From a virus, in the IMG/VR virus record IMGVR_UViG_3300045988_174260: DNA of 40,094 bases. One strand, written 5' to 3'. Every line of letters starts with the position of its first letter. Positions within the stretch are counted from its first letter, which is position 1. This document shows, piece after piece, positions 1 through 40,094 of the stretch. The position numbers were made by a program, and so were the translations under genes. The notes beneath the pieces were generated by a model that worked only from the letters and a program-made list of their open reading frames with translations, searched no databases and was not told where the DNA came from.

Positions 1-157
1 TTTTCTTCTCCATTGTTGTATCGGTTTTCTTCTCCATTGTTGTATCGGTTTTCTTCTTCATTGTTGTATCGGTTTTCTTCTCCATTGTTGTATCGGTTTT
101 CTTCTTCATTGTTGTATCGGTTTTCTTCTCCATTGTTGTATCGGTTTTCTTCTTCAT
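1..157. repeat. 24-bp tandem direct repeat with 6 full units plus a 13-nt partial unit. Consensus is TTTTCTTCTYCATTGTTGTATCGG, and position 10 is C or T in the pattern C,C,T,C,T,C,T.
   Basis: Read directly. Units lie at 1-24, 25-48, 49-72, 73-96, 97-120 and 121-144, with the partial unit at 145-157. There are no spacers between units. The array continues from the right end of the window. Confidence 0.97.
1..157 (-). CDS. N-terminal part of the octapeptide-repeat protein. The ORF starts at ATG 157-155 and continues across the circular junction into 40039..39771.
   Basis: The minus-strand frame through the 24-bp array is open and reads MKKKTDTT MEKKTDTT MKKKTDTT MEKKTDTT MKKKTDTT MEKKTDTT MEKK-. 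The ATG at 157-155 overlaps the TGA of the upstream micropeptide ORF (ATGA). Confidence 0.6.
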   Translation of the reverse strand, partial: MKKKTDTTMEKKTDTTMKKKTDTTMEKKTDTTMKKKTDTTMEKKTDTTMEKK

Positions 158-249
158 AGGCCGATTGCGTATAAAAAACTAATCCAAATTATTGCACCAG
201 CAATTAAAACAATTAAATCTTCTATTTTTTCTTTTATTTTTTTATTCAT
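154..249 (-). CDS. Unannotated 31-aa micropeptide, MNKKIKEKIEDLIVLIAGAIIWISFLYAIGL. It has a charged N-terminus followed by one predicted transmembrane helix.
   Basis: Hand translation of the minus strand. Its ATG (249-247) overlaps the TGA of the amidoligase ORF (ATGA). Its TGA (156-154) overlaps the ATG of the repeat protein (ATGA). It falls below the 60-aa cut-off of the ORF track. Confidence 0.5.
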   Translation of the reverse strand: MNKKIKEKIEDLIVLIAGAIIWISFLYAIGL

Positions 250-1496
250 ATATTTTCGAGTAATTTATATAATTCTTTTGTCATACATTTTTCTCTTAGA
301 AAAGATATATATTTCGGAGCAATCTCCTTTAATTCTAATAATGATATTTCTCTATTCTCCATCGCGAAGAGATAAGTAAAGTAGCAAAAATCTACTATTG
401 TTTTAATCCTTTCTTTTTTGACTGTTCCCTTGCCCCTCCTAAATTCTATTGTGGCATTATTACTGAAATTTAATTCACAATACCTATTATTCGAAATTTT
501 ATCAAAGAGGAGCTTTTGGCCTTTTGGGGATGCAGAAATAGGGTGGACGCCGTATTGTTTTAGCTCACAAACACCCGGAATTGTGAAACAGTATTGATTG
601 TTATCTCTTCCAAATATTTTATTAACCAGTTCGTAAGAAAGAGAGTAAAAACATTTTTTCAGCAAAAGTTCTACACTTCTTTCACACTTGATTCGTGAAA
701 CGTGAACATGTAGCCCCGTTTCTTTAGTTGATTGAGAATAAGAGCCGAATAACGGGAAAAATTCTTCGCATAGCAAATCAATAGCTCCATTTTTTTTCAA
801 CAATGATTCAATAGGCAAAGGTCGGGTAGTTAGTTCTGTTCCTCCTCTTTCGTCACGTAAGGAGCCGTCATGCTGGAAGTAAAAAAAATTAGAAAACTTA
901 TTGTAAATAGAACGGTTTTGGTGATAAAATTCTATTTCCAACCCTACAAGGGGAGCTTTTAGGGTTGAGTTTTCAGGGATCCAACCATGAGGCCGAAAGT
1001 GGTATCCGTTCATTTTTGTTTCTATCAAGTCTTTTTCCGAAAAATCACTTATAAGGAACTCCTTTGTGCTTAAATATCTCAAAGCCGGGAAGACATGCTC
1101 TATTATATAACTCCACTCTTTTTCCGGGATTTGTTTTAAAGTGAAGGCATCTAAGAAGCACTTAAAGATTTTTATAAAATCACTAGAGTATTTTTGTTTT
1201 TGGTTTAGCTCTTTGTCGGGAACTGGAATTATTGTTTGAGAAAAAAAATTACACATTGCCCATAGAGTTGCGTTCCTTATCAATTTAAAATTTTTTTTCT
1301 CAAGCACAATCCCGTTTAAATCTTTAACTCCTGCAAACCGCAAAAAAGCGGTTGCTTTTCTCCTTCTTAAATACAAGTCCTTTGCTTGTTGCGTCTTGTA
1401 GCCAAAATCAAAAATTTTATTTTCACAAAACAAATAGTAATTCTCTCTTACAAATTGTTTCAGAAATTCTACTTTATCTTTTTCTTTTTTATTCAT
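246..1496 (-). CDS. Amidoligase_2-type (glutamine-synthetase/GCS2-like) COOH-NH2 ligase with an unknown N-terminal domain of about 180 aa.
   Basis: The C-terminal half carries the ordered motifs GLEIEF, DGSLRDERGGTELTTRP, GLHVHVS, NRYCELN and ATIEFRRGKGT. These match my recollection of the Amidoligase_2 (PF12224) signature: GxExE, ExxS/TxP, GxHVH, RYxxxN, EFR. Confidence 0.72.
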   Translation of the reverse strand: MNKKEKDKVEFLKQFVRENYYLFCENKIFDFGYKTQQAKDLYLRRRKATAFLRFAGVKDLNGIVLEKKNFKLIRNATLWAMCNFFSQTIIPVPDKELNQKQKYSSDFIKIFKCFLDAFTLKQIPEKEWSYIIEHVFPALRYLSTKEFLISDFSEKDLIETKMNGYHFRPHGWIPENSTLKAPLVGLEIEFYHQNRSIYNKFSNFFYFQHDGSLRDERGGTELTTRPLPIESLLKKNGAIDLLCEEFFPLFGSYSQSTKETGLHVHVSRIKCERSVELLLKKCFYSLSYELVNKIFGRDNNQYCFTIPGVCELKQYGVHPISASPKGQKLLFDKISNNRYCELNFSNNATIEFRRGKGTVKKERIKTIVDFCYFTYLFAMENREISLLELKEIAPKYISFLREKCMTKELYKLLENI

Positions 1497-1497
1497 G

Positions 1498-2070
1498 TCA
1501 AATAATGATTCGGAGGTTTTCGTTTTTAGTATTCAGACCTGAATAAGTTTTCCATATGTCTCCAATAATTGAATTAGAATCGTGCAGTTTATAAAAGATA
1601 TTTTCGCTCAAATTCACCAACAACCCTTTTTTTTGTAAAATAATCCCACATTTTTTATAGTATTTTAGAGCTAAAAATTTGTTTGAAGAAAAGGCCCTAG
1701 TGATTGGATAGCTACTATTTAGTTTTTTTTCCTCATATTCGGGGAAATGGCCTAGGGTCGGTTTTGTTTTAAAACGGGCAGATGATAGCGGTTTAACCCC
1801 AACAATATAAACACCGGCGTTTTTTTTCCCGCCAGAAGTCCTAAGAACCGGCAAATAACCTAAAGTGTTTCCAAAAACAAAAATAGGGCTGATAAGCGTT
1901 TTTTGAGTTGTACCGGTATCTAAATTTTCTATTTTCGCGAAAAAATAAACGCTAATAAAGGATTGTAGGTCTCTAATTACAGAGCAATCATCTTGAGCGT
2001 GAATGGTTCCAGAATAAGCGGGAATTCTGCTTTTCGCGGTCCTGTATAGTTTTATTGAGTATTTATGCAT
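1498..2070 (-). CDS. Hypothetical protein (190 aa).
   Basis: Long ORF in a tightly packed minus-strand operon. There is 1 nt between its stop and the next start. No motif recognised. Confidence 0.6.
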   Translation of the reverse strand: MHKYSIKLYRTAKSRIPAYSGTIHAQDDCSVIRDLQSFISVYFFAKIENLDTGTTQKTLISPIFVFGNTLGYLPVLRTSGGKKNAGVYIVGVKPLSSARFKTKPTLGHFPEYEEKKLNSSYPITRAFSSNKFLALKYYKKCGIILQKKGLLVNLSENIFYKLHDSNSIIGDIWKTYSGLNTKNENLRIII

Positions 2071-2082
2071 GTTTTTTTAGAG

Positions 2083-2499
2083 TTATTCCCCGTAAAGGAA
2101 TTTTTTTGTGTTTAAAATTTCACCTTTATATGAAATTTTAAAATCTTTATTTTTCTCTACGCATAAGTGCGCATGAAGGAAAGCTTGCTCTTTTGTTAGT
2201 TTTATTGTTCGTGAGGGCAGGAACATAAATTTTTCTTCTAAAGCTTTATGCCAAATTTCATTTATTTCTCCAAATATCACTATTCCGAGACAAGGATAAT
2301 GTGCTTTTTCTTTGATTTGTATTTTTCTGTTTTTTTGCAAAATAAGAATTAGGCCTTTCTCTGTTTTTTTTAGTTCTTTAATTATTGTTACAACAGATAA
2401 AACGCTTCTTTTATTTTCTTTTAAAAAAATAATGATATGTGTTTTTTTTATTATTATTTTTTTTGAAGCATCTATAATGTTTTGAATTTCAACATTCAT
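2083..2499 (-). CDS. Hypothetical protein (138 aa).
   Basis: ORF in the same operon with AT-rich codon usage consistent with its neighbours. Confidence 0.55.
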   Translation of the reverse strand: MNVEIQNIIDASKKIIIKKTHIIIFLKENKRSVLSVVTIIKELKKTEKGLILILQKNRKIQIKEKAHYPCLGIVIFGEINEIWHKALEEKFMFLPSRTIKLTKEQAFLHAHLCVEKNKDFKISYKGEILNTKKFLYGE

Positions 2500-2782
2500 C
2501 GAGCGTCAAGGTTTTGAAGTTAAATCTATATTCTAATCCGTCCTTTAAAGGAGCCTTCCTAAAATCGCTCAATAAGTCTCCTTCGGGGCGGTTTTCTAGG
2601 CGAAAAATGAGCTTTCGAGGTTTTTTGGAGACGTCAAAAACCTCAATAATTGAGCCTAATCTCCAATCAGCTTTTATCATGCGGTGAAAGGTTCTAAGCC
2701 CGTGTGAAAAATTTAAATAAAGAACAGGGCAAACACGCCTTTCTTCTTGAGGGTTTTCAAACTCAAATTCAAAAACTTTCAT
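2489..2782 (-). CDS. Hypothetical protein (97 aa).
   Basis: ORF overlapping the downstream gene by 11 nt, which is typical operon packing. Confidence 0.55.
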   Translation of the reverse strand: MKVFEFEFENPQEERRVCPVLYLNFSHGLRTFHRMIKADWRLGSIIEVFDVSKKPRKLIFRLENRPEGDLLSDFRKAPLKDGLEYRFNFKTLTLDEC

Positions 2783-2786
2783 AGCT

Positions 2787-3134
2787 TCAAAAATATGCGA
2801 GATTATAAAAAATTAAATTTTCAAAAGGTGTTATCTTGTGCCATTTTATATAAATTCCAACTATTTCCGTTTTTGGTTCAAAGTGGTAATTATAAATAAA
2901 TTCCTTAAAATATTTATCTTCTTTCTTTTTTATTATTTCTATAGCATTAAATCTGATGCCGTTTAGCAAATCTATTAGTATTTTTTGTTCCAAAACGTTG
3001 GATAAGTTTTTTTTAAGCTGATATATTCGCCCTTGTTTTTCAAGGCTGATTTTTCCTTTTAGCTTTAAGTCTGTGTCTTTTCCTAAAAAATAGGCGACGG
3101 CTCCAAAATTTGTTGTATAATCAATAGAACTCAT
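2787..3134 (-). CDS. Hypothetical protein (115 aa).
   Basis: ORF in the operon. No motif recognised. Confidence 0.55.
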   Translation of the reverse strand: MSSIDYTTNFGAVAYFLGKDTDLKLKGKISLEKQGRIYQLKKNLSNVLEQKILIDLLNGIRFNAIEIIKKKEDKYFKEFIYNYHFEPKTEIVGIYIKWHKITPFENLIFYNLAYF

Positions 3135-3414
3135 ATTCCCTTTTCAAAAAAAACATATTGCTATAGTTAACGTCATAAAACAGTGAATTTCTTTTTTTCA
3201 AAATCTCTTCAAAGGATGATTTGCTTCTTTTTTGCTCTTCTATCATTGCGGATTCAGGGAAGGCATGAGCAAAATCAATATGCGCTTCGAGGTTTGGCAA
3301 TTCCTCCCCCGTTACTGGTCCTGCAAAGATAAAATAAATATTAGCGCGAACGAAAACAAAATACTTATCTTCTCTCTTTTTTTTAAAAACTTTCACAATA
3401 TGTTTAGCGTCCAT
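3121..3414 (-). CDS. Hypothetical protein (97 aa).
   Basis: ORF in the operon, overlapping the downstream gene by 14 nt. Confidence 0.55.
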   Translation of the reverse strand: MDAKHIVKVFKKKREDKYFVFVRANIYFIFAGPVTGEELPNLEAHIDFAHAFPESAMIEEQKRSKSSFEEILKKRNSLFYDVNYSNMFFLKREYEFY

Positions 3415-3446
3415 TAAGTGCGAAATTTACATGGTTAAAAAATTCT

Positions 3447-3593
3447 TCAGGCGATAAAAAAGTAAAGATAGTCTCGTAAGTCTTCTGCCTCCGTTACTAA
3501 TTCCAAAGCGTATTGTTTTACGCCTTTTTTCCATTTAGTTCGGGCGGGGCTTTTCAATATTTTTTTATTACTTCTTCTCTGTTGTTTTTTCAT
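3447..3593 (-). CDS. Unannotated small basic protein (48 aa): MKKQQRRSNKKILKSPARTKWKKGVKQYALELVTEAEDLRDYLYFFIA.
   Basis: Hand translation. Its ATG lies 1 nt downstream of the stop of the 3595..3834 ORF. It fills an otherwise empty 180-nt gap in a dense operon. Confidence 0.4.
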   Translation of the reverse strand: MKKQQRRSNKKILKSPARTKWKKGVKQYALELVTEAEDLRDYLYFFIA

Positions 3594-3594
3594 T

Positions 3595-3834
3595 TTATTT
3601 TATTCTTTTCTTCATGCCTTTTACTAACTCGCTCGCCCGTTTAGAGACGTTATCCTTAGTTCCTACGACAAAGGTTTGCCAACCGCAATTCATGCACCCG
3701 TATTCATAACTTCCCTTAGGGTTCTGCAATGTCTCATAAACCAAAACGTCCATCGGAAGCCGGCAAAATGGGCATCGCAACTTTTTAAATTTCTCTTGTT
3801 TCTTTTTTCCCATGTTTTTTGTTTTTTCTCTCAA
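3595..3834 (-). CDS. Small zinc-ribbon protein and first gene of the leftward operon. Possible nucleic-acid-binding regulator.
   Basis: Two Cys pairs, CPFC and CMNC, are spaced about 26 aa apart. Both termini are basic. Confidence 0.6.
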   Translation of the reverse strand: MREKTKNMGKKKQEKFKKLRCPFCRLPMDVLVYETLQNPKGSYEYGCMNCGWQTFVVGTKDNVSKRASELVKGMKKRIK

Positions 3835-4055: not shown

Positions 4056-4939
4056 CTACTCCTAACTCCATCGGATTTCTCCATCCTTTTTCTCGTTGCG
4101 GGTTCTTACCTCTTCCCGCTCCTCTTCGCTCTCTTGACCTTTCCATCGGTCAGGAGGGCGTAAGGGGGGATAAGCGGGGGAGTTAAACCCCGGCCGGGAC
4201 GAACCAGTTTGCCCTCTTCCTTAAAAATGGTTTCTCCCATAGTGGACCCTCTTTTGCCATTTTTACGTGTTTTTTTAGGCGGATCCGTCATAAGTAGCAA
4301 ACTGTTAGAGGCTAGCGAATTTTAAGAAAACCTGTGTTCCTAGGGCTTGCCAAAAATCGGGTTTTGTGCATGTTTCATGTTTATTTTCTCTAGATTGTCT
4401 CGCTCTTGAGTGTTTTTTTTGTAGAGCCTCGGCGATTCGGTGCGTGCTTTGAGCGGCCTTCAAACTGGCTCAAAAGCGTACCGATTCCGTTGCATTTGGG
4501 TGCCTTCTGCCTGCTTCTGCTTGTGTGCGCACCGACAATCTTCATAACTCGTTGACTGTCTATCATACTTCGCATAACACACATAATGCCAAATAGGGCA
4601 CATTTGAGGACAATCCCGAATATCGCGCTACAATGGGCCTAGCGCGCGCCGCATATCTGCCATGAGTAATGTATAGGCCCATCCTCTAAAAAGCCCGTGT
4701 GCGCAATCCTCGCAAGCCGTTTTTCGGGCAAATCGTAGTAATTAGAATAATTATTGAGGTTTTGCCCACTTTAGGCCATGTTGCGGCGTTGCTTCGGAGC
4801 CACCTAGCCATGAGGGACTGCAAGCCCGTCAGCACCGCACCACCCCTAGGTGCTTCTTGCTAGGACGTCCCTACAGGCGGGAGGCGGGGAAAAATCGCCG
4901 GGCGTTTCGCGCTGGACAAAGAAGGTATCACCCTGCATA

Positions 4940-5401
4940 ATGAGGGAAAAGGGAGAAGAGAAAGAGAAGAAAGAAATGGCGAGAAGAAGAGGAGACGTAG
5001 AGATGAACGTGAAATTAGTGAGAGAGTTGGTGGAAGAAGTGAGGGGGGAATTGGAGCGAGGGGAGGTGAGGACGGTAGAGGAGGCGTTATCGAAGCGAGG
5101 AGTGAGCCGGAAGCTGTTTAGGGAGATGGGGGGAATAGAGGAGTGGAAGGGAGAGAGGAGGAGAGGCGAGAGAGGAGGAGAGGAGCGGGAAGAGGAAGAG
5201 GAAATGGGGAAAGAGGAAATGGGGAAGTTTTTAAGTAGAGTGATAAGAGGGAGGGAGCTAGGGATGGGGGGAAAGGAGAAGATGAGTGCGGTAGGGTTGT
5301 ATATGAGGTTGAAGGGATGGGACAAGGTGAAAGAGGAGAGGGAGGAGCTGGTAGGAGAGGAGATGAGAGAGCTGCTGAAAAAAGACAAAGAAAAGAGTTG
5401 A
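4940..5401 (+). CDS. Highly charged E/R/K/G-rich protein (153 aa) with a possible helix-turn-helix.
   Basis: The ORF track gives 4850..5401. I moved the start to ATG 4940, where the purine-rich coding composition begins. A possible HTH is TVEEALSKRGVSRKLFRE. The frame choice is uncertain because stop codons are rare in all + frames here. Confidence 0.45.
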   Translation: MREKGEEKEKKEMARRRGDVEMNVKLVRELVEEVRGELERGEVRTVEEALSKRGVSRKLFREMGGIEEWKGERRRGERGGEEREEEEEMGKEEMGKFLSRVIRGRELGMGGKEKMSAVGLYMRLKGWDKVKEEREELVGEEMRELLKKDKEKS

Positions 5402-5436
5402 TGAAAGAGGAGGAGGAGAGATAAACTAAAGAGGAG

Positions 5437-6078
5437 ATGAGAAAAGGATTGGACGAAGTAAAGATAAGGAAAGAAGAGCTGGAACATGGCTTTTTGAGGG
5501 GGGTGAAGGAGATGGTGAGGCAGAAGGTGGAGATGGGGTTAATGCCATGGGGGCGGCGGGTATTTTATCCGAAGATGGTATTGAGGGCGAGGCCGCAGAA
5601 GTTGAGGGATTTTTTGATAGAGGAGGAGGTATGGGAGTTGCAGGAATGGAGCAAGGATTCATTGGAGAGCAATCCTGAGCGGCACCATTTGTACGAATGC
5701 GGAGGGAGGTATTATATGGGATTGTACTTTAAGAGTACGAGGGGGCGGAGCATAAGGAGGAAGCTAAGTTTAGGGACAAGGGAATTGGAAGAGGCGAAAG
5801 AGAGGAGGGACGAGTTTTATAAAGAGTGGAGAGGGAAGGGATTGAAATGGTATATGGCAGACGGGGCGAAATGGAATATGAAGTTACCGGGAGTGCCGGA
5901 GGTAGGAGAGTTGAGCAAATTAGACAAAAGGGCGCGGAAGGAGACGGAAGAGGCGGCGGTACAGGCGTTGAAGGAAGCGCGGGAGAGTTGGAAGAGGAGG
6001 AGGTGGGAGCAAGTGAGGAAGGAGGAGTATTGGGAGGCAGAGGAGAAGAGGAGCCGGAGTTTAAGGAAATGGAAATAG
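5437..6078 (+). CDS. Protein with an integrase Arm-type/AP2-like DNA-binding motif and an E/R/K-rich C-terminal helix. It has no recombinase catalytic domain.
   Basis: HHLYECGGRYYMGLYFKSTRGRSIRRKLSLGTRELEEAKERRDEF resembles the lambda Int N-terminal arm-binding pattern (LY..nGyY.yr...g....LG......A). The ORF is only 213 aa. Confidence 0.5.
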   Translation: MRKGLDEVKIRKEELEHGFLRGVKEMVRQKVEMGLMPWGRRVFYPKMVLRARPQKLRDFLIEEEVWELQEWSKDSLESNPERHHLYECGGRYYMGLYFKSTRGRSIRRKLSLGTRELEEAKERRDEFYKEWRGKGLKWYMADGAKWNMKLPGVPEVGELSKLDKRARKETEEAAVQALKEARESWKRRRWEQVRKEEYWEAEEKRSRSLRKWK

Positions 6079-6089
6079 GAGGTAAGGAG

Positions 6090-6287
6090 ATGGAAAAAGA
6101 AGTAGGAATAATGGTAAAGTTTGGGAAAGGAAAGGTAATGGAACTGCATTTGTTTCCGAACAAGGAGGCAATGAGGAAGTGGCGAGGAGAGGACAGCGAG
6201 CAAGACGCAGAGGGGGAGTACCGGGAGTGGAGCGTACCGTTGGAGGTGATAGAGGACTTATGGGCGGCGGCGATGGGAGAGGAATAA
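6090..6287 (+). CDS. Small hypothetical protein (65 aa).
   Basis: This is the distal part of track ORF 5826..6287. The proximal 250 nt overlap the 5437..6078 CDS in another frame. ATGs at 6069, 6090 and 6111 are all possible starts. Confidence 0.35.
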   Translation: MEKEVGIMVKFGKGKVMELHLFPNKEAMRKWRGEDSEQDAEGEYREWSVPLEVIEDLWAAAMGEE

Positions 6288-6311
6288 AAAATTAGAATAA
6301 TAATAAAAAGT

Positions 6312-6878
6312 ATGAAAATAATCGTAGACATAGGGCATGCGCGGAACACAGGAGCGCGAGGGAACGGGCTGGAAGAGCACGCAGTAAGCGAGGAGATAAG
6401 CAAAGAGTTGGTGAGGGAGTTAAAGGCGGCAGGGTATGAGGTAGTTGAGTTGGACTTTCCGCACCTTAGTAACGCGAAGGACTTGGAAGCGACGATAAAA
6501 GAGGCGAATCGGATGGGTTCGGATATAGGAATATCGTTGCACTGCGACAGTGCAAGTCATTGGGTAGGAGGGGAAGAAGAGGCGAACCCTAAGCCGCATG
6601 GAGGGCATGTGTGCTACTATCCTGGGAGCAGTAAGGGGAGGAAGTTGGCAGAGGCGGTAGGAGTGCGTCTTAGCGGGCTATTGCCTGGGCGAGCAGAGGC
6701 AGTGGTAGGGAGGAAGGACTTGGCGGTATTGAGGCGAACAAGGCCGGTATGGATATTGTGTGAGTGTGGATTTATAACGAATCCGGGAGATGCGGAGGTG
6801 ATGAGGGAGCATCCGGAGAAGATAGCGAGGGCGATAAGCGAAGGAGTGAAGGATTATTTGAAATATGCAAGAGATTGA
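6312..6878 (+). CDS. N-acetylmuramoyl-L-alanine amidase (Amidase_3-type), the endolysin.
   Basis: KIIVDIGHARNTGARG...EE, GISLHCDSA and WILCECGFITNPGDAEVM match the Amidase_3 pattern (iviDpGHGg.d.GA...E, fiSiH.Na, vLvE.GFisN..d). Confidence 0.8.
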   Translation: MKIIVDIGHARNTGARGNGLEEHAVSEEISKELVRELKAAGYEVVELDFPHLSNAKDLEATIKEANRMGSDIGISLHCDSASHWVGGEEEANPKPHGGHVCYYPGSSKGRKLAEAVGVRLSGLLPGRAEAVVGRKDLAVLRRTRPVWILCECGFITNPGDAEVMREHPEKIARAISEGVKDYLKYARD

Positions 6879-7356
6879 TAAAGAGGGAGTTGGAGAGCTT
6901 GTGCACAGCATTGCGCACGGGGACAAGTGGGAGGAGGTTGAGGACAGGAAGAGTTGTTGCGTATGGGTAATGAGGAGCAAGGACAAGTTTCTTGTGAGGG
7001 AGGGGGTATTAAAGAAATGGCCGAAAAGGGGCTGGAAGGGGCGAGCATTAAGCAAAGGAGGGAAATGCTATGCGCAATCGGCAGACAGCATATTGAAGGA
7101 GGCAGAGGTAGAATGGGAAAGGAAGCCGGAGTATGCGCACATGTACTATAGCGGGATGCTGGGAGGAAAGGCGGCGAAAGACGCGACGTGTTTTTTAGAG
7201 GAAGCCAGAGTATTTAAGATGCCATTGCCGAGGGGGAGGTATAACAGCGATGCGTGGGAGTTTGTAAGGTGCCGTCTTGTAGAGGAAGTGGTAGAGAAGC
7301 CGATGGACGACGAAATGGACATTTGGTTGAAGTACAGGAGGGACAAATGGTTTTAA
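6865..7356 (+). CDS. Hypothetical protein. Small terminase subunit candidate by position only.
   Basis: A 163-aa ORF immediately upstream of TerL. Its stop overlaps the TerL start region. No motif recognised. Confidence 0.35.
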   Translation: MQEIDKEGVGELVHSIAHGDKWEEVEDRKSCCVWVMRSKDKFLVREGVLKKWPKRGWKGRALSKGGKCYAQSADSILKEAEVEWERKPEYAHMYYSGMLGGKAAKDATCFLEEARVFKMPLPRGRYNSDAWEFVRCRLVEEVVEKPMDDEMDIWLKYRRDKWF

Positions 7357-32951: not shown

Positions 32952-33442
32952 ATGTTCTGATTGCGATTGACAAACAGGATAAGGTTTTAACTCACATTGG
33001 TCAGAGCTTGGAAAGCTTTCTGGATAAGGGATTTTTTACCTCAATAAATGAGGTAGTGCCGACCACAAAAGAAATTAACCTATTTATGACTAATAGGTGG
33101 GACAATATGGGAATAGAGTTTATTTTGAGGTTGCGAACTTCCTCTGTTACCTCTGATAGAGCCACGCATCAAAAACTTGTCTCTTCAAACACACAAACGC
33201 CATTTGGTTTTAGGCTCCTGCATACAGCAAATACCCTTTTGCAAAAAGAGGGTTGGGGCGAATTTGGGTTTAACCCATGCACGGAATTTAAGGGGTTGCC
33301 GGGTTGGATAGACTTTATTGATATTGAAATTGCCAATGTGGCAGACAAGAAAGACCTCTCTGCTCTAGGGGACGGAAAAGTTTTTGCAAGTAGCGTTGCT
33401 AAATGGATGAATAAGGCCGCAAAATATCTTCAAACAAGGTGA
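32948..33442 (+). CDS. Hypothetical protein (164 aa).
   Basis: Its ATG overlaps the upstream stop (ATGA). Confidence 0.5.
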   Translation: MNVLIAIDKQDKVLTHIGQSLESFLDKGFFTSINEVVPTTKEINLFMTNRWDNMGIEFILRLRTSSVTSDRATHQKLVSSNTQTPFGFRLLHTANTLLQKEGWGEFGFNPCTEFKGLPGWIDFIDIEIANVADKKDLSALGDGKVFASSVAKWMNKAAKYLQTR

Positions 33443-33802
33443 TTATAAATCCTTGTTGAACAAATAATCATCAATAACCTTACACTCTCTCATAGACAAC
33501 GGGGATTGCTTGTAATACATGCGAATCCCCGTTCTTTTTGCACTTCTTACATCTAGATATGACAGAGGCATACACCTGTTTGTCCTATAGAGTTTTTTAA
33601 AGCGGGCAGAACGCCATTCTCTGTTCCTGCGGGCGGCTATGCAAAAATCCAGAGCCTTTACTGCATCTCCTGTTAATGTTTTTTGTATAAACTTGGTTGG
33701 AGAATAAGACCTCTGTCTTAGAAGCGCAGATAATGGGTTGCCCACAGAAAAAAGTTCCAGTATTTCGTAAAACTCTTTATCCGTAAGCCTGTTTAACTTC
33801 AT
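33443..33802 (-). CDS. Hypothetical protein (119 aa).
   Basis: Last gene of the minus-strand replication and recombination operon. Confidence 0.5.
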   Translation of the reverse strand: MKLNRLTDKEFYEILELFSVGNPLSALLRQRSYSPTKFIQKTLTGDAVKALDFCIAARRNREWRSARFKKLYRTNRCMPLSYLDVRSAKRTGIRMYYKQSPLSMRECKVIDDYLFNKDL

Positions 33803-37909: not shown

Positions 37910-38326
37910 ATGACAGGTGACATGTCTATAAATAGCCGCATGCAGAAAGAACTACCACAAGAACAACTGTCGGCATTTTCTAAGTTTGCAGTCCAGAACG
38001 AAGAGTTGTGCAAGCTCATGATGCAAAGAGTGGGATTCAAAATCACTCCAATGGTTTGGAACAAAGCGAAATGGAATCCGGCTCAAATGTCTGTCAAAAA
38101 GCTCACCCACCTCCGCGCCTTTTATCCTGCGGCATTTGGGTTAGAGGATGAGCCTAATAGCGATTTTTTGAAGTCTCTGTACTACCTCCACATTTCCAAC
38201 AGAATACTTTCAGGAGAAATTGAACCTCTTATTGAAGATAAGGATTTTGCGACCTATATGCCTTACGCCCATTTTGTTTTACCGATAGACGATTTTACAA
38301 AAAACGCCCTTTCTAAATTCATGTAA
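37910..38326 (+). CDS. Hypothetical protein (138 aa), possibly a replication initiation partner by position.
   Basis: The track ORF is 37823..38326. I moved the start to ATG 37910 to clear the divergent 37002..37880 gene. It lies upstream of the DnaC-like ATPase. Confidence 0.45.
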   Translation: MTGDMSINSRMQKELPQEQLSAFSKFAVQNEELCKLMMQRVGFKITPMVWNKAKWNPAQMSVKKLTHLRAFYPAAFGLEDEPNSDFLKSLYYLHISNRILSGEIEPLIEDKDFATYMPYAHFVLPIDDFTKNALSKFM

Positions 38327-38335
38327 AAAACGAAA

Positions 38336-38968
38336 ATGAACTATCCACTTGACGACTATCCGCTAGAAGAAATGGAACGAAAATCTGTTCCGAGGTTGGT
38401 AAAAGACATTTTAGATTTAGACCAATTATTGAAAGGGTTAGATAAAATACCGCTAACAAGTGAAGAAGAAAAGGAAGAGTGGAGAAGGAAGGAAAAAGAG
38501 AAAGAAAGGGTGAAAGGCTGGGAAAAACGGCTAAAAGAATCAGGCGTTCCTTTAGCGTTTTACCAAGCTTGCGTTCAAAAAAAAATCGTTCAATGCAAGC
38601 TTTTCCCGGGGATGAATCAAGTAAAAGCTCGTAGCTGGTTTTTTGCCTCTTCGAAGAAAGGGAAAACCTTTTCCGCTTGCAACCTAATTGCGAAAGAATT
38701 GTGGGAGGGAAGAAGAGGGTTGTATTTAAAGGCCGTCGACCTAGAAAGAGAATTATCAAGTTTTCGTCCTCAAGAAGAACTCTTAAGGAAATATCAAAGA
38801 GTACCTTTTCTTGTAGTGGACGATTTTGAAGGAATGCGGATGAGTGTGAATTCATCCTGCAATTTTATAGCATTCCTCAAAAAAAGAAACGATTCCGGAT
38901 TGTGCTCTTTTATTATAATGAGAGAACGTACTTTTTTTGCGGAACAGATAGAACGGGCGACTACTTGA
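38336..38968 (+). CDS. DnaC/IstB-like AAA+ ATPase, a putative helicase loader.
   Basis: Walker A is ASSKKGKT (AxxxxGKT) and Walker B is FLVVDDFE. The 210-aa size fits. Confidence 0.55.
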   Translation: MNYPLDDYPLEEMERKSVPRLVKDILDLDQLLKGLDKIPLTSEEEKEEWRRKEKEKERVKGWEKRLKESGVPLAFYQACVQKKIVQCKLFPGMNQVKARSWFFASSKKGKTFSACNLIAKELWEGRRGLYLKAVDLERELSSFRPQEELLRKYQRVPFLVVDDFEGMRMSVNSSCNFIAFLKKRNDSGLCSFIIMRERTFFAEQIERATT

Positions 38969-39065: not shown

Positions 39066-39755
39066 CTATTGCACTCTCTTTTCAGGTATTAAAACGTTAT
39101 TTAATGAATAGTATTTTTTTGTATAGTGATATTTTTTAGAATACTTTGAATAACCTAAATTGTGATTGTAGTAAAGTTCATCTCCATACGATGAACAAGT
39201 GTATTTAGCATTATACTTTAGATAAGAAGAGTTAGAGAAATAGGCAAATTTATTTTTATCTGGTCTTTGAAAATCGCCATAAAAAAGCATCTCTCCTTTT
39301 TTCCAAAATACAAATTTATTTGAGCCGAGGACGGCATTAACCATGTTGTCTATATCGTCATTGTTTTCCTGGATGCAATACTCACCAAAAGCTGGCAAAA
39401 ATAGGTATCGGAAAAAAGTTTCGCTATCTGTTAGATCGTCTTTGTTTTTAATGCTCAAGATTCCATTATGGCAAAAGTACCAGCCATTTCCATTCCAGCC
39501 ATGAACGTTTTTTTCTGAAATTGAGCCATGCGTTTTGATGCGAGCATGCAAGAGGACAACATAATCTTTTGGGATTGTGTTCCACAAATTAACAATTTCT
39601 TTTTTTAAAAGGGTACGAATAAAATATTCTGGCTTTTCTTGGCATGTACCTCTTTTAAATGCGGCTAAAAAGAAGCCGTCAGGGTTGTTTGTGATGCAAT
39701 TTTGAAAATGTTGATTGCCAATATCTTTTTTGATTCCGTACGCGATAATACACAT
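39066..39755 (-). CDS. YafJ-type class-II glutamine amidotransferase-like Cys-Ntn amidohydrolase.
   Basis: The N-terminus is Met-Cys (MCIIAYG). The motifs LLHARIKTHG, NVHGW, FCHNGIL and LTDSETFFRY line up by eye with E. coli YafJ (AHIRQANRG, THPF, AHNGQL, ETDSEKAF, recalled from memory). Confidence 0.78.
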   Translation of the reverse strand: MCIIAYGIKKDIGNQHFQNCITNNPDGFFLAAFKRGTCQEKPEYFIRTLLKKEIVNLWNTIPKDYVVLLHARIKTHGSISEKNVHGWNGNGWYFCHNGILSIKNKDDLTDSETFFRYLFLPAFGEYCIQENNDDIDNMVNAVLGSNKFVFWKKGEMLFYGDFQRPDKNKFAYFSNSSYLKYNAKYTCSSYGDELYYNHNLGYSKYSKKYHYTKKYYSLNNVLIPEKRVQ

Positions 39756-39770: not shown

Positions 39771-40094
39771 TTAGTTTTTTCCGTATTTATCAATGATAGA
39801 TTTAACGCCTAGAGTTAATTCTAGGGCTAATTTTTCTTCTTCTTGTGTTTCGTAAAATATTTTTATGAAAGTATATTGCCATTGAGGTGAATATGACATT
39901 TTCATGCCTTTTTTGATTAAATAGTTTATGACGTCCTGCCTTATCTTTCCAAATGTTTCTGCTGATAGTGTTTTTTTGTAAACATTTACAAATTCAATGT
40001 TTAAACTGCCAACCAAGGAAGAGATGCAACACTCTAGCTTTTTCTTCTCCATTGTTGTATCGGTTTTCTTCTCCATTGTTGTATCGGTTTTCTT
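39771..40094 (-). CDS. Body of the octapeptide-repeat protein. The reconstructed circular ORF is 39771..40039 plus 1..157, about 141 aa. No recognisable domain.
   Basis: The ORF track gives 39771..40076. The frame stays open to the window edge (KKTDTT precedes Met 40076). The C-terminal roughly 90 aa are non-repetitive (KLECCISSLVGSLNIEF...). Confidence 0.65.
   Translation of the reverse strand, partial: KKTDTTMEKKTDTTMEKKKLECCISSLVGSLNIEFVNVYKKTLSAETFGKIRQDVINYLIKKGMKMSYSPQWQYTFIKIFYETQEEEKLALELTLGVKSIIDKYGKN
40040..40094. repeat. Exact 55-nt copy of window positions 1-55. This is a terminal overlap of a circularly closed contig.
   Basis: 40040-40094 compared base by base with 1-55: identical. 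The window ends before the next position can be compared (position 56 is c). Confidence 0.95.

What the first reader, a model, noticed from the sequence alone, without database searches (positions are those of the whole stretch)
1..157. 24-bp tandem array with a dual reading: iteron-type origin inside a gene, or a copy-number-variable octapeptide N-terminus with seven nested start codons
**Seen in the sequence**
- There are 6.5 head-to-tail copies of TTTTCTTCTYCATTGTTGTATCGG, with a single alternating C/T polymorphism.
- On the minus strand every unit encodes M(E/K)KKTDTT. Seven in-frame ATGs therefore lie exactly 24 nt apart.
- The array abuts an 88-nt stretch (158-245) that is about 75-80% A+T.

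**Reading 1: replication origin**
- Direct repeats of about 18-24 bp next to an AT-rich segment are the classic architecture of iteron origins.
- In phage lambda the origin iterons lie inside the initiator gene O.
- A DnaC-like loader gene lies about 1 kb away, at 38336..38968.

**Reading 2: variable protein N-terminus**
- The array may be a slippage-prone module that tunes the N-terminal length of a cassette protein.

The array is longer than the 55-nt terminal overlap of the contig, so the true copy number may have been collapsed by assembly.
Basis: partly seen in the sequence, partly recalled or inferred. Interest (0 to 1): 0.6.

Follow-up and report, generated by a model that had tools for sequence, protein, structure and literature searches.

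The report
Variable coding repeat at gene start
The 24-base repeat is a fast-changing, in-frame expansion of the very start of a small gut-phage gene, giving a floppy lysine-rich tail with many start codons; it is not a replication origin, and its main practical effect is to break phage genome assemblies.

Summary
There are six exact 24-nt units plus a 13-nt partial unit, found nowhere else in the window, and the contig's 55-nt terminal overlap lies inside the array.

The origin reading is not supported:
- The "AT-rich flank" is a conserved 31-codon membrane micro-ORF, joined by ATGA overlaps to the amidoligase-like gene upstream and the repeat gene downstream.
- GC- and purine-skew extremes lie at 4.87 and 33.4 kb, not at the array.
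- Unit sequence and period differ between phages whose candidate replication proteins are 90-100% identical.
- A distant syntenic relative has no array.

The coding reading is supported:
- More than 60 related human-gut phage assemblies carry an array at the same site, with 24-nt units in the window's clade and 12-nt E[QP][KM]K units in a sister clade.
- All length differences are multiples of 3.
- No methionine lies between the array and the conserved 89-aa α/β domain.
- The tail is predicted to be disordered.
- Phages 99.56% identical in flanking DNA differ in unit number (6 versus 4).

The function of the tail is unknown. This is an ordinary kind of element (a coding minisatellite) in an unusual position.

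The parts
14..157 (-). Six full 24-nt units, ATG[A/G]AGAAGAAAACCGATACAACA, each encoding M(K/E)KKTDTT. The ATG at 157 is the first start codon of the 141-codon ORF and overlaps the micro-ORF stop (ATGA).
1..13 (-). Partial seventh unit (ATGGAGAAGAAAA). It is probably the ancestral start of the gene, and it runs on into KLECC... across the contig junction.
   Evidence: relatives end their arrays in the same way
40040..40094 (-). Assembly overlap, an exact duplicate of 1-55. It is not extra sequence.
39771..40039 (-). Unique part of the repeat-bearing gene, with its stop codon. It encodes an 89-aa conserved alpha/beta domain (strand-helix-helix-strand-strand-helix) of a family confined to this phage group.
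154..249 (-). 31-codon micro-ORF, MNKKIKEKIEDLIVLIAGAIIWISFLYAIGL, with one hydrophobic helix. Its ATG overlaps the TGA of the upstream gene, and its TGA overlaps the first ATG of the array.
246..1496 (-). 416-aa amidoligase-like protein, the upstream gene of the coupled chain. The similarity is weak and below curated thresholds.
39066..39755 (-). 229-aa class-II glutamine-amidotransferase-like (Ntn) protein, the last gene of the leftward operon. The similarity is weak and below curated thresholds.
37910..38968 (+). Oppositely oriented pair: a 138-aa ORF of unknown function and a 210-aa DnaC/IstB-type AAA+ protein. These are the only candidate replication-initiation genes near the array, and they do not co-vary with the array unit.

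Best explanation
**What it is**
The array is a coding minisatellite. It arose by repeated in-frame tandem duplication of the translation start region and the first codons of a small phage gene, most likely through replication slippage or unequal recombination. That gene sits in a translationally coupled chain: amidoligase-like gene, then a 31-codon membrane micro-ORF, then the repeat gene, then an Ntn/GATase-like gene.

**What it makes**
Each unit adds eight polar or charged residues, M(K/E)KKTDTT, to a disordered N-terminal tail ahead of a conserved 89-aa alpha/beta domain. Each unit also adds another in-frame AUG in an unstructured, A-rich leader without a Shine-Dalgarno (SD) ribosome-binding motif.

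**How it is probably read**
Ribosomes finishing the micro-ORF can restart at the overlapping first AUG. Free ribosomes can probably start at any unit. The expected product is one protein, or a ladder of proteins, with tails of 0 to 6 or more octapeptides.

**How it evolves**
Unit number and unit sequence turn over quickly and are homogenised within each genome. The ancestral state is a unique lysine-rich tail.

**Shown**
- The anatomy of the array and its neighbours.
- Conservation of the site across relatives.
- Length changes only in multiples of 3.
- Rapid turnover of the array.
- Predicted disorder of the tail.
- Absence of origin signatures.

**Inferred**
- Slippage as the generating mechanism.
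- That the array is actually translated, and which start codon is used.
- That tail length is tolerated or only tunes dosage, rather than being essential.
For: **Same site, many relatives**
- Close homologues are 141 aa minus n x 8 aa (125, 117, 109, 101). Their units are lineage-specific: MKKKTEPT, MKEKTEPT, MKEKTNKP.
- Members of the >=90%-identity cluster of the closest homologue are 101, 109, 117 and 125 aa.
- All 41 loci of a sister clade (56-64% identity in the conserved domain) carry in-frame 12-nt units, E[QP][KM]K, at the same site. These often alternate with a 24-nt super-period.
- The distance from the micro-ORF stop to the conserved LEC motif is 35+24n in the window's clade and 46+12n (n = 0-14) in the sister clade.

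**Ancestral state**
- A distant relative (41% identity) has the same gene order and the same ATGA overlap, but a unique tail, MKDNKKTEQKKVNTLT, and no tandem repeat.

**Start codon must lie in the array**
- No Met lies between the array and the conserved domain in any clade.

**Fast turnover**
- The window and locus L001 are 99.56% identical over 6.4 kb, yet their arrays have 6 versus 4 units and a different K/E order.

**Structure**
- AlphaFold gives mean pLDDT 86 for the domain and below 50 for tail residues 1-10.

**Translation context**
- The array RNA has no predicted base pairs in the centroid structure.
- Only about 5 of 38 phage genes have an SD-like motif at a workable distance (-15 to -5) from the start; most have none within 25 nt.
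- The array ATGs score at the 31st-53rd percentile of true starts and the 88th-95th percentile of internal ATGs.
- In SD-blind Bacteroidetes, extra AUGs near starts are normally avoided because they compete as start sites (PMC6847099). All the extra AUGs here are in frame.

**Micro-ORF is coding**
- Among 10 distinct sequences there are 13 synonymous against 6 conservative non-synonymous variant codons.
- The ...GL-stop ending is conserved across clades.
- Its own ATG has a high start score.
Against: - There is no direct evidence of translation or of start-site use.
- Copy numbers come from short-read assemblies, which collapse or break at the array.
  - k=31 Logan assemblies nearly always give the minimum length.
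  - One scaffold has an N-gap inside the array.
  - About 18 of 41 contigs end in the array.
  - Part of the apparent variation is therefore artefact.
- In many sister-clade loci the first 1-3 units lack an ATG and so lie upstream of the first start. The repeat therefore persists partly outside the translated frame. Homogenisation at the DNA level, rather than selection on the peptide, could maintain it.
- The second half of the unit is poorly conserved (TDTT, TEPT, TNKP, KKEP), so no specific peptide function is evident.
- An array is present in nearly all members of both clades. That hints at a benefit that this explanation does not identify.
Confidence: 0.8

Rival explanations
1. Iteron-type replication origin inside a gene, as in lambda ori within gene O. 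On this reading the 24-bp repeats bind an initiator and the adjacent A+T-rich DNA melts.
For: - Direct repeats of about the right size lie next to the most A+T-rich 88 nt of the neighbourhood (24% G+C).
- A weak DnaC/IstB-like AAA+ gene lies 1.1 kb away.
- No other iteron-like array was found in 30-40 kb.
- From my own knowledge, lambdoid iterons are also lineage-specific and are translated as part of a protein.
Against: - The A+T-rich flank is a conserved micro-ORF with mostly synonymous variation and ATGA overlaps at both ends.
- Cumulative GC- and purine-skew extremes lie at 4872-4874 and 33416-33449, which are the transcription strand-switch points. None lies at the array.
- Unit sequence and period differ (24 versus 12 nt; TDTT, TNKP, TEP) between phages whose 138-aa ORF and DnaC-like protein are 92-100% and 90-99.5% identical.
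- A syntenic 40-kb relative has no array.
- All periods and length differences are multiples of 3.
- There is no dyad symmetry and no dispersed copies.
- The protein carrying the array has no recognisable DNA-binding fold.
Confidence: 0.04
2. The repeated Lys/Glu/Asp/Thr tail is a multivalent substrate or acceptor of the neighbouring amidoligase-like and Ntn-hydrolase-like enzymes. This would be a peptide-modification or tagging module in which copy number sets the number of modification sites.
For: - The gene order amidoligase-like, micro-ORF, repeat gene, Ntn-like is invariant and tightly coupled in all clades, including the distant relative.
- Every unit in every lineage keeps both Lys and an acidic residue, the groups joined by carboxylate-amine ligases.
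- Phage amidoligase/GATase cassettes have been predicted to make unusual amide or peptide bonds (PMC5498523, citing Iyer et al. and Hardies et al.).
- Multi-core precursors processed by ligases are known for microviridins (PMC5934393).
Against: - Both enzyme assignments are weak and below Pfam cut-offs: Amidoligase_2 E=0.025, GATase_4 E=0.0017.
- The repeat family is confined to this phage group, whereas the enzyme pair is widespread in phages that lack it.
- The unit sequence is not conserved beyond its composition.
- There is no leader peptide or recognition motif.
- Units upstream of the first ATG are not translated in many loci.
Confidence: 0.1
3. The array is selected mainly as an RNA-level, copy-number-tunable translation-initiation pad. 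Multiple equivalent AUGs in an unstructured A-rich leader would raise output of the downstream domain, and the peptide itself would be irrelevant.
For: - The phage's genes are SD-poor.
- The array RNA is unstructured.
- The array ATGs are start-like.
- 54% of sister-clade units carry ATG, and Pro is strongly linked with Met: EPMK 67 against EPKK 6.
- AUG context matters in SD-blind hosts (PMC6847099).
Against: - The start scores are only average for this phage.
- The first ATG is already coupled to the micro-ORF by an ATGA overlap.
- A distant relative manages with a single start and a unique tail.
- No expression data exist.
Confidence: 0.2
4. The array marks the physical genome ends (a direct terminal repeat) or a packaging signal. 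Alternatively, it is an assembly artefact.
For: - Many contigs of about 40 kb begin or end in the array.
- IMG/VR classes one such record as having direct terminal repeats.
Against: - The terminal "repeat" of that record is the tandem array itself, at 1-62 and 40376-40425.
- The window's overlap is exactly 55 nt, a typical assembler k-mer length (my inference), and lies within the array.
- Other assemblies read straight through the array inside long contigs.
- The array sits inside a translationally coupled operon.
- It appears in more than 60 independent assemblies from several pipelines, so it is not an artefact.
Confidence: 0.03

Closest known systems
In-frame coding minisatellites (VNTRs) made by slipped-strand mispairing, for example the 24-bp octapeptide Xr repeats of Staphylococcus aureus protein A used in spa typing (from my own knowledge)
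   Same: - 24-nt units encoding polar or charged octapeptides.
- Copy number and unit variants differ between near-identical genomes.
- Units are homogenised within a genome.
- The encoded segment is disordered.
   Different: - Here the unit contains the start codon and sits at the extreme 5' end of the gene, so each copy also adds a potential start site.
- The gene belongs to a phage accessory operon and does not encode a surface protein.
- A sister clade uses a 12-nt unit at the same site.
Lambda-type origin iterons inside the initiator gene O, and plasmid iteron origins (from my own knowledge)
   Same: - Tandem direct repeats of about 20 bp inside an ORF, next to A+T-rich DNA.
- Repeat sequences are lineage-specific.
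   Different: - The carrier protein has no recognisable initiator or DNA-binding domain.
- The A+T-rich flank is itself a conserved gene.
- The repeats have no dyad symmetry.
- The period varies (24 or 12 nt), always in multiples of 3.
- No skew switch lies at the array.
- A relative lacks the array.
- The unit does not co-vary with the candidate replication proteins.
Multi-core RiPP precursors such as microviridin/graspetide precursors (PMC5934393, PMC8939145)
   Same: - Tandem repeated short peptides rich in Thr, Asp/Glu and Lys.
- Encoded next to a putative carboxylate-amine ligase.
   Different: - The neighbouring enzyme is, at best, a glutamine-synthetase-like Amidoligase_2 and not an ATP-grasp ligase.
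- The repeats are N-terminal to a folded domain and have no leader peptide.
- The core motif is not conserved between lineages.
- Some units lie upstream of the start codon.
Phage amidoligase / glutamine-amidotransferase ('unusual peptide bond' or peptidoglycan-modification) cassette of phiEco32-, LUZ24- and RIO-1-like podoviruses (PMC5498523, PMC3890496)
   Same: An amidoligase-like gene and a class-II GATase-like gene lie in one accessory or early operon of a podovirus of about 40 kb.
   Different: - This version is reduced and very divergent, with no ATP-grasp, COOH-NH2 ligase or cyclotransferase genes detected.
- The micro-ORF and the repeat-tailed protein between the two enzymes are specific to this gut-phage group.

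Membership tests
Iteron-type replication origin | Several direct repeats of about 17-24 bp at one locus | tested here: met
   Six exact 24-nt units plus a partial unit.
Iteron-type replication origin | Adjacent non-coding A+T-rich DNA-unwinding element | tested here: not met
   - Positions 158-245 lie within a 31-codon micro-ORF that is conserved across clades.
- Among its variant codons, 13 are synonymous and 6 are conservative replacements. It has ATGA overlaps at both ends.
Iteron-type replication origin | A cognate initiator encoded at or next to the repeats, co-varying with the repeat sequence | tested here: not met
   - The carrier protein has no known DNA-binding domain or fold.
- The nearby 138-aa ORF and DnaC-like protein are 92-100% and 90-99.5% identical between phages with different units.
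Iteron-type replication origin | Strand-composition (skew) switch at the origin | tested here: not met
   GC- and purine-skew extremes lie at 4872-4874 and 33416-33449. In phages the skew largely follows transcription direction, so this test is weak.
Iteron-type replication origin | Element conserved and required in related replicons | tested here: not met
   - A syntenic relative (L048) has no tandem repeat at the site.
- Period and sequence differ between clades.
Iteron-type replication origin | Initiator binding and origin activity | not testable with these tools
   This needs EMSA or footprinting and origin mapping.
In-frame coding tandem repeat (coding VNTR) | Period is a multiple of 3 and is in frame with a conserved downstream ORF | tested here: met
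   - Units of 24 and 12 nt.
- Distances follow 35+24n and 46+12n.
- No in-frame stop occurs in 49 arrays.
In-frame coding tandem repeat (coding VNTR) | Copy number differs between closely related genomes | tested here: met
   - 6 versus 4 units at 99.56% flank identity.
- Cluster members of 101, 109, 117 and 125 aa.
- 1-15 units in the sister clade.
- Caveat: short-read assemblies collapse arrays.
In-frame coding tandem repeat (coding VNTR) | The repeat is translated | tested here: inconclusive
   - The start codon must lie in the array, because there is no Met downstream.
- Which ATG is used is unknown, and no expression data could be obtained.
- Units upstream of the first ATG exist in many loci.
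Multi-core RiPP precursor | Conserved core motif, a leader peptide and a cognate ATP-grasp or other modifying enzyme | tested here: not met
   - The unit is conserved only in composition.
- No leader peptide is present.
- No ATP-grasp match was found among the neighbouring proteins scanned.

The most novel reading that the evidence does not exclude
The lysine- and acid-rich repeat tail is the built-in, multivalent acceptor of the adjacent amidoligase-like and Cys-Ntn enzymes. This would be a phage-encoded protein-tagging or isopeptide-forming module, anchored by the membrane micro-protein. Minisatellite copy number would set how many modifications one protein carries, and that would finally give a substrate to the long-predicted but untested phage amidoligase cassette.
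Probability: 0.1. Interest if true: 0.7.

Novelty: new member of a known kind. Interest (0 to 1): 0.3.

Why it matters
**For biology**
- The result removes a false origin candidate from this phage genome.
- It shows that a widespread group of roughly 40-kb human-gut podophages keeps a hypervariable, start-codon-bearing minisatellite at one fixed gene boundary, inside a putative amide-bond-forming cassette.
- The repeat-tailed protein and its membrane micro-ORF partner are the obvious first things to co-express with the two enzymes when that cassette is tested.

**For genomics**
- The array is the point where assemblers break or close these genomes.
- It can be misread as a direct terminal repeat in completeness calls.
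- It makes short-read copy numbers unreliable.

Tried and rejected
**Ideas tested and rejected**
- **Programmed +1 frameshift fusing the micro-ORF to the repeat protein.** The sister clade ends its micro-ORF with CUU UGA C, the RF2 (prfB) shift heptamer, and the array is in the +1 frame.
  - The ending varies: CTT TGA A, TTT TGA A, CTT TAA A.
  - Three loci carry an extra base just after the stop, which changes the frame relation.
  - The window's clade uses a -1 ATGA overlap.
- **The array as a mosaic or recombination boundary.** Identity profiles show a diverged amidoligase gene. There is no consistent abrupt step at the array.

**Searches that found nothing useful**
- Known RNA family: nothing meaningful in 1-600.
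- Function of the 89-aa domain: no Pfam hit and no PDB fold match, with best Foldseek E = 2.8. The family is confined to this phage group.
- Annotated phage relatives: none by megablast or tblastn.
- Bacterial genomes: no copy.
- More distant family members P0010 and P0015 in viral contigs: none.
- An exact 101-aa product of the window in public assemblies: none.
- Other iteron-like arrays in 30-40 kb: none convincing.

**Things that were unavailable**
- The window's own assembly is not held, and the nearest virus record lacks the region.
- The Iyer et al. 2009 paper is not held.

Full report
**1. The observation**

The repeat is real.
- Tandem Repeats Finder reports 1-157, period 24, 6.5 copies, 96% matches, score 293.
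- A pattern search finds six exact full units on the minus strand at 14-157, reading ATG[A/G]AGAAGAAAACCGATACAACA. No further copy lies anywhere in the window, and none is expected by chance.
- Bases 1-13 are a partial seventh unit.

The first and last 55 nt of the window are identical and lie inside the array. The contig is therefore a circular assembly of 40,039 nt that was closed through the repeat.

On the closed molecule the minus strand carries a 141-codon ORF. It reads six times M(K/E)KKTDTT, then MEKKK, then a unique 89-residue part.

The window is a podovirus-like phage genome. It encodes terminase, portal, major head protein, tail proteins and an amidase endolysin. Its relatives come from human-gut metagenomes.

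**2. The "AT-rich flank" is a gene**

Positions 158-245 are 24% G+C. They lie within a minus-strand ORF of 31 codons (249..154), MNKKIKEKIEDLIVLIAGAIIWISFLYAIGL, which has one hydrophobic helix.
- Its ATG overlaps the TGA of the upstream 416-aa gene.
- Its TGA overlaps the first ATG of the array. Both overlaps are ATGA.

The micro-ORF is conserved.
- It is present in close relatives, where gene callers also annotate it.
- It is present in a sister clade as 34 codons with the same ...GL-stop ending.
- It is present in a distant relative, which ends ...YAIGL-stop and again has an ATGA overlap.

Two further points mark it as a real gene.
- Among ten distinct sister-clade sequences, 13 variant codons are synonymous and 6 are conservative replacements.
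- Its start context scores at the 86th percentile of this phage's true starts.

This removes the proposed DNA-unwinding element.

**3. What relatives show about the array**

*The window's clade.*
- Close homologues of the 141-aa protein are shorter by whole units: 125, 117, 109 and 101 aa.
- Their units are lineage-specific (MKKKTEPT, MKEKTEPT, MKEKTNKP), while the 89-aa part stays 85-98% identical.
- Members of the >=90%-identity cluster of the closest homologue are 101, 109, 117 and 125 aa.
- The window and locus L001 are 99.56% identical over 6.4 kb. Their arrays nevertheless differ in unit number (6 versus 4) and in the order of K and E units.

*The sister clade.*
- Forty-one loci (56-64% identity in the conserved domain) all carry an in-frame array of 12-nt units at the same place.
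- Unit counts are EQKK 98, EPMK 67, EQMK 56 and EPKK 6. The units often alternate, which restores a 24-nt super-period.

*Spacing.* The distance from the micro-ORF stop to the conserved LEC motif is 35+24n in the window's clade and 46+12n (n = 0-14) in the sister clade.

*Homology of the arrays.* By my own hand comparison of the sequences printed, the 24-nt unit of locus L002 and the sister-clade super-unit share about 18 of 24 bases. The arrays therefore look homologous.

*A relative without an array.* A distant relative (41% identity, 40,041-nt contig) has the same gene order. Its tail is unique, MKDNKKTEQKKVNTLT, and it has no tandem repeat. That tail contains both KKTE and EQKK. Both arrays therefore look like expansions of an ancestral lysine-rich N-terminus.

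**4. Coding reading**

- Every period and every length difference is a multiple of 3.
- No array contains an in-frame stop.
- No Met lies between the array and the conserved domain in any clade. The start codon must therefore lie in the array.
- AlphaFold models the domain with confidence (mean pLDDT 86; strand-helix-helix-strand-strand-helix). It leaves the tail disordered, with pLDDT below 50 for residues 1-10.
- The fold has no PDB match.
- The family is confined to this phage group: 16 hits among 1.84 billion representative proteins, several of which are fragments or low-complexity proteins.

**5. Nested starts**

- Only about 5 of the 38 phage genes examined have a Shine-Dalgarno-like motif at a workable distance (-15 to -5) from the start. 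Most have none within 25 nt, and the leaders are A-rich.
- The array RNA has no predicted base pairs in its centroid structure.
- With a position matrix built from this phage's own starts, the array ATGs score at the 31st-53rd percentile of true starts and the 88th-95th percentile of internal ATGs. They are plausible starts but not exceptional ones.
- In Shine-Dalgarno-blind Bacteroidetes, AUG triplets near starts are normally depleted because they compete as start sites (PMC6847099). Here all the extra AUGs are in frame and so do no harm.
- The first ATG can be reached by termination-reinitiation from the micro-ORF.
- In loci L002 and L003 the first start is GTG, and the micro-ORF's TGA is kept.
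- In many sister-clade loci the first one to three units lack an ATG and so precede the first start. The repeat therefore persists at the DNA level even where it is not translated.

**6. Origin reading**

Besides the loss of the flank (section 2), the following points count against an origin.
- Cumulative GC- and purine-skew extremes lie at 4872-4874 and 33416-33449. These are the points where transcription switches strand, and neither is at the array.
- The candidate replication pair is only weakly assigned. It consists of a 138-aa ORF and a DnaC/IstB-like AAA+ protein at 37910-38968 on the plus strand.
- Between phages whose array units differ, the 138-aa ORF is 92-100% identical and the DnaC-like protein 90-99.5% identical.
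- The units have no dyad symmetry and no dispersed copies.
- A syntenic relative has no array at all.

I put this reading at about 4%.

**7. Assembly caveat**

- About 18 of the 41 sister-clade contigs, most of them about 40 kb long, begin or end inside the array.
- One scaffold has an N-gap inside the array.
- Logan k=31 assemblies nearly always give the minimum length.
- One IMG/VR record is classed as having direct terminal repeats, but its terminal repeat is the array itself.
- The window's own array has a 48-nt super-period that is shorter than its 55-nt overlap. By my reasoning its count of six units is therefore not secure.

**8. Context and function**

- The repeat gene sits between a 416-aa amidoligase-like gene and a 229-aa class-II GATase/Ntn-like gene.
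  - Amidoligase-like gene: PHROG "amidoligase" E=5e-6; Pfam Amidoligase_2 E=0.025, below the cut-off.
  - GATase/Ntn-like gene: GATase_4 E=0.0017, below the cut-off.
- Such enzyme pairs are known in phiEco32-, LUZ24- and RIO-1-like podoviruses. They have been predicted, but never shown, to make unusual amide bonds or to modify peptidoglycan (PMC3890496, PMC5498523).
- The micro-ORF and the repeat-tailed protein are additions specific to this gut-phage group.
- Each unit keeps Lys and an acidic residue. The tail could therefore be a multivalent substrate of the ligase. I rate this at about 10%, for three reasons:
  - the unit is conserved only in composition;
  - the enzyme assignments are weak;
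  - the enzyme pair is widespread in phages that lack this protein.

**9. Verdict**

The origin reading is not supported, and the variable-N-terminus reading is supported.

The element is a coding minisatellite, which is a known kind of element. Its unusual feature is that the unit includes the start codon and lies at a conserved gene boundary across diverged clades. Its function is unknown. It may be near-neutral, or it may tune protein dosage. Interest is modest.

Noticed in passing
L009 (IMG/VR record of 40,429 nt), positions 1-62 and 40376-40425: IMG/VR classes this record as having direct terminal repeats. The terminal repeat is the 12-nt tandem array itself. DTR-based circularity or completeness calls for this phage group therefore rest on a minisatellite.
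   Followed up: partly
L007, L011-L016 and others, at the micro-ORF stop (for example L007 about 2355-2365): In the sister clade the micro-ORF ends CUU UGA C, the RF2 (prfB) +1 frameshift heptamer, and the array is in the +1 frame. I rejected a frameshift fusion because both the ending and the frame relation vary between loci.
   Followed up: yes
L045:1398-1760: This copy has no ATG anywhere in its array (EQKKEQKKEK) and also has a frameshifted 3' end. It is probably a defective allele or an assembly error. P0009 shows a similar 3' frameshift.
   Followed up: partly
window 246-1496 (minus strand) compared with L002 and L004: The amidoligase-like protein is the most diverged gene of the cassette. 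It is 80-82% identical between close relatives, against 90-99% for the genes downstream of the array.
   Followed up: partly
whole window, gene starts: Most of the 38 predicted genes have no Shine-Dalgarno-like motif within 25 nt of the start, and only about five have one at -15 to -5. Leaders are A-rich, which suggests a host with SD-independent initiation.
   Followed up: partly
window 4846-7356: This block has extreme purine and GC skew (GC skew +0.59, G+C 51%). Both the GC- and purine-skew minima fall at its left edge, about 4873. The leftward accessory operon at 1-3834 has only 33% G+C.
   Followed up: no
window 140-185, minus-strand RNA: The first ATG (157) is predicted to pair with the U-rich end of the micro-ORF in a weak hairpin, whereas the internal ATGs are unpaired.
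   Followed up: no
sister-clade arrays (L007-L047): There is strong linkage within units. Pro almost always comes with Met (EPMK 67 against EPKK 6), while Gln comes with either Lys or Met (EQKK 98, EQMK 56).
   Followed up: no
L006:1-40: One lineage appears to have a 21-nt unit, MKKKTEP, through a 3-nt deletion. Its contig starts only 15 nt upstream of the gene, so the period could not be confirmed.
   Followed up: no
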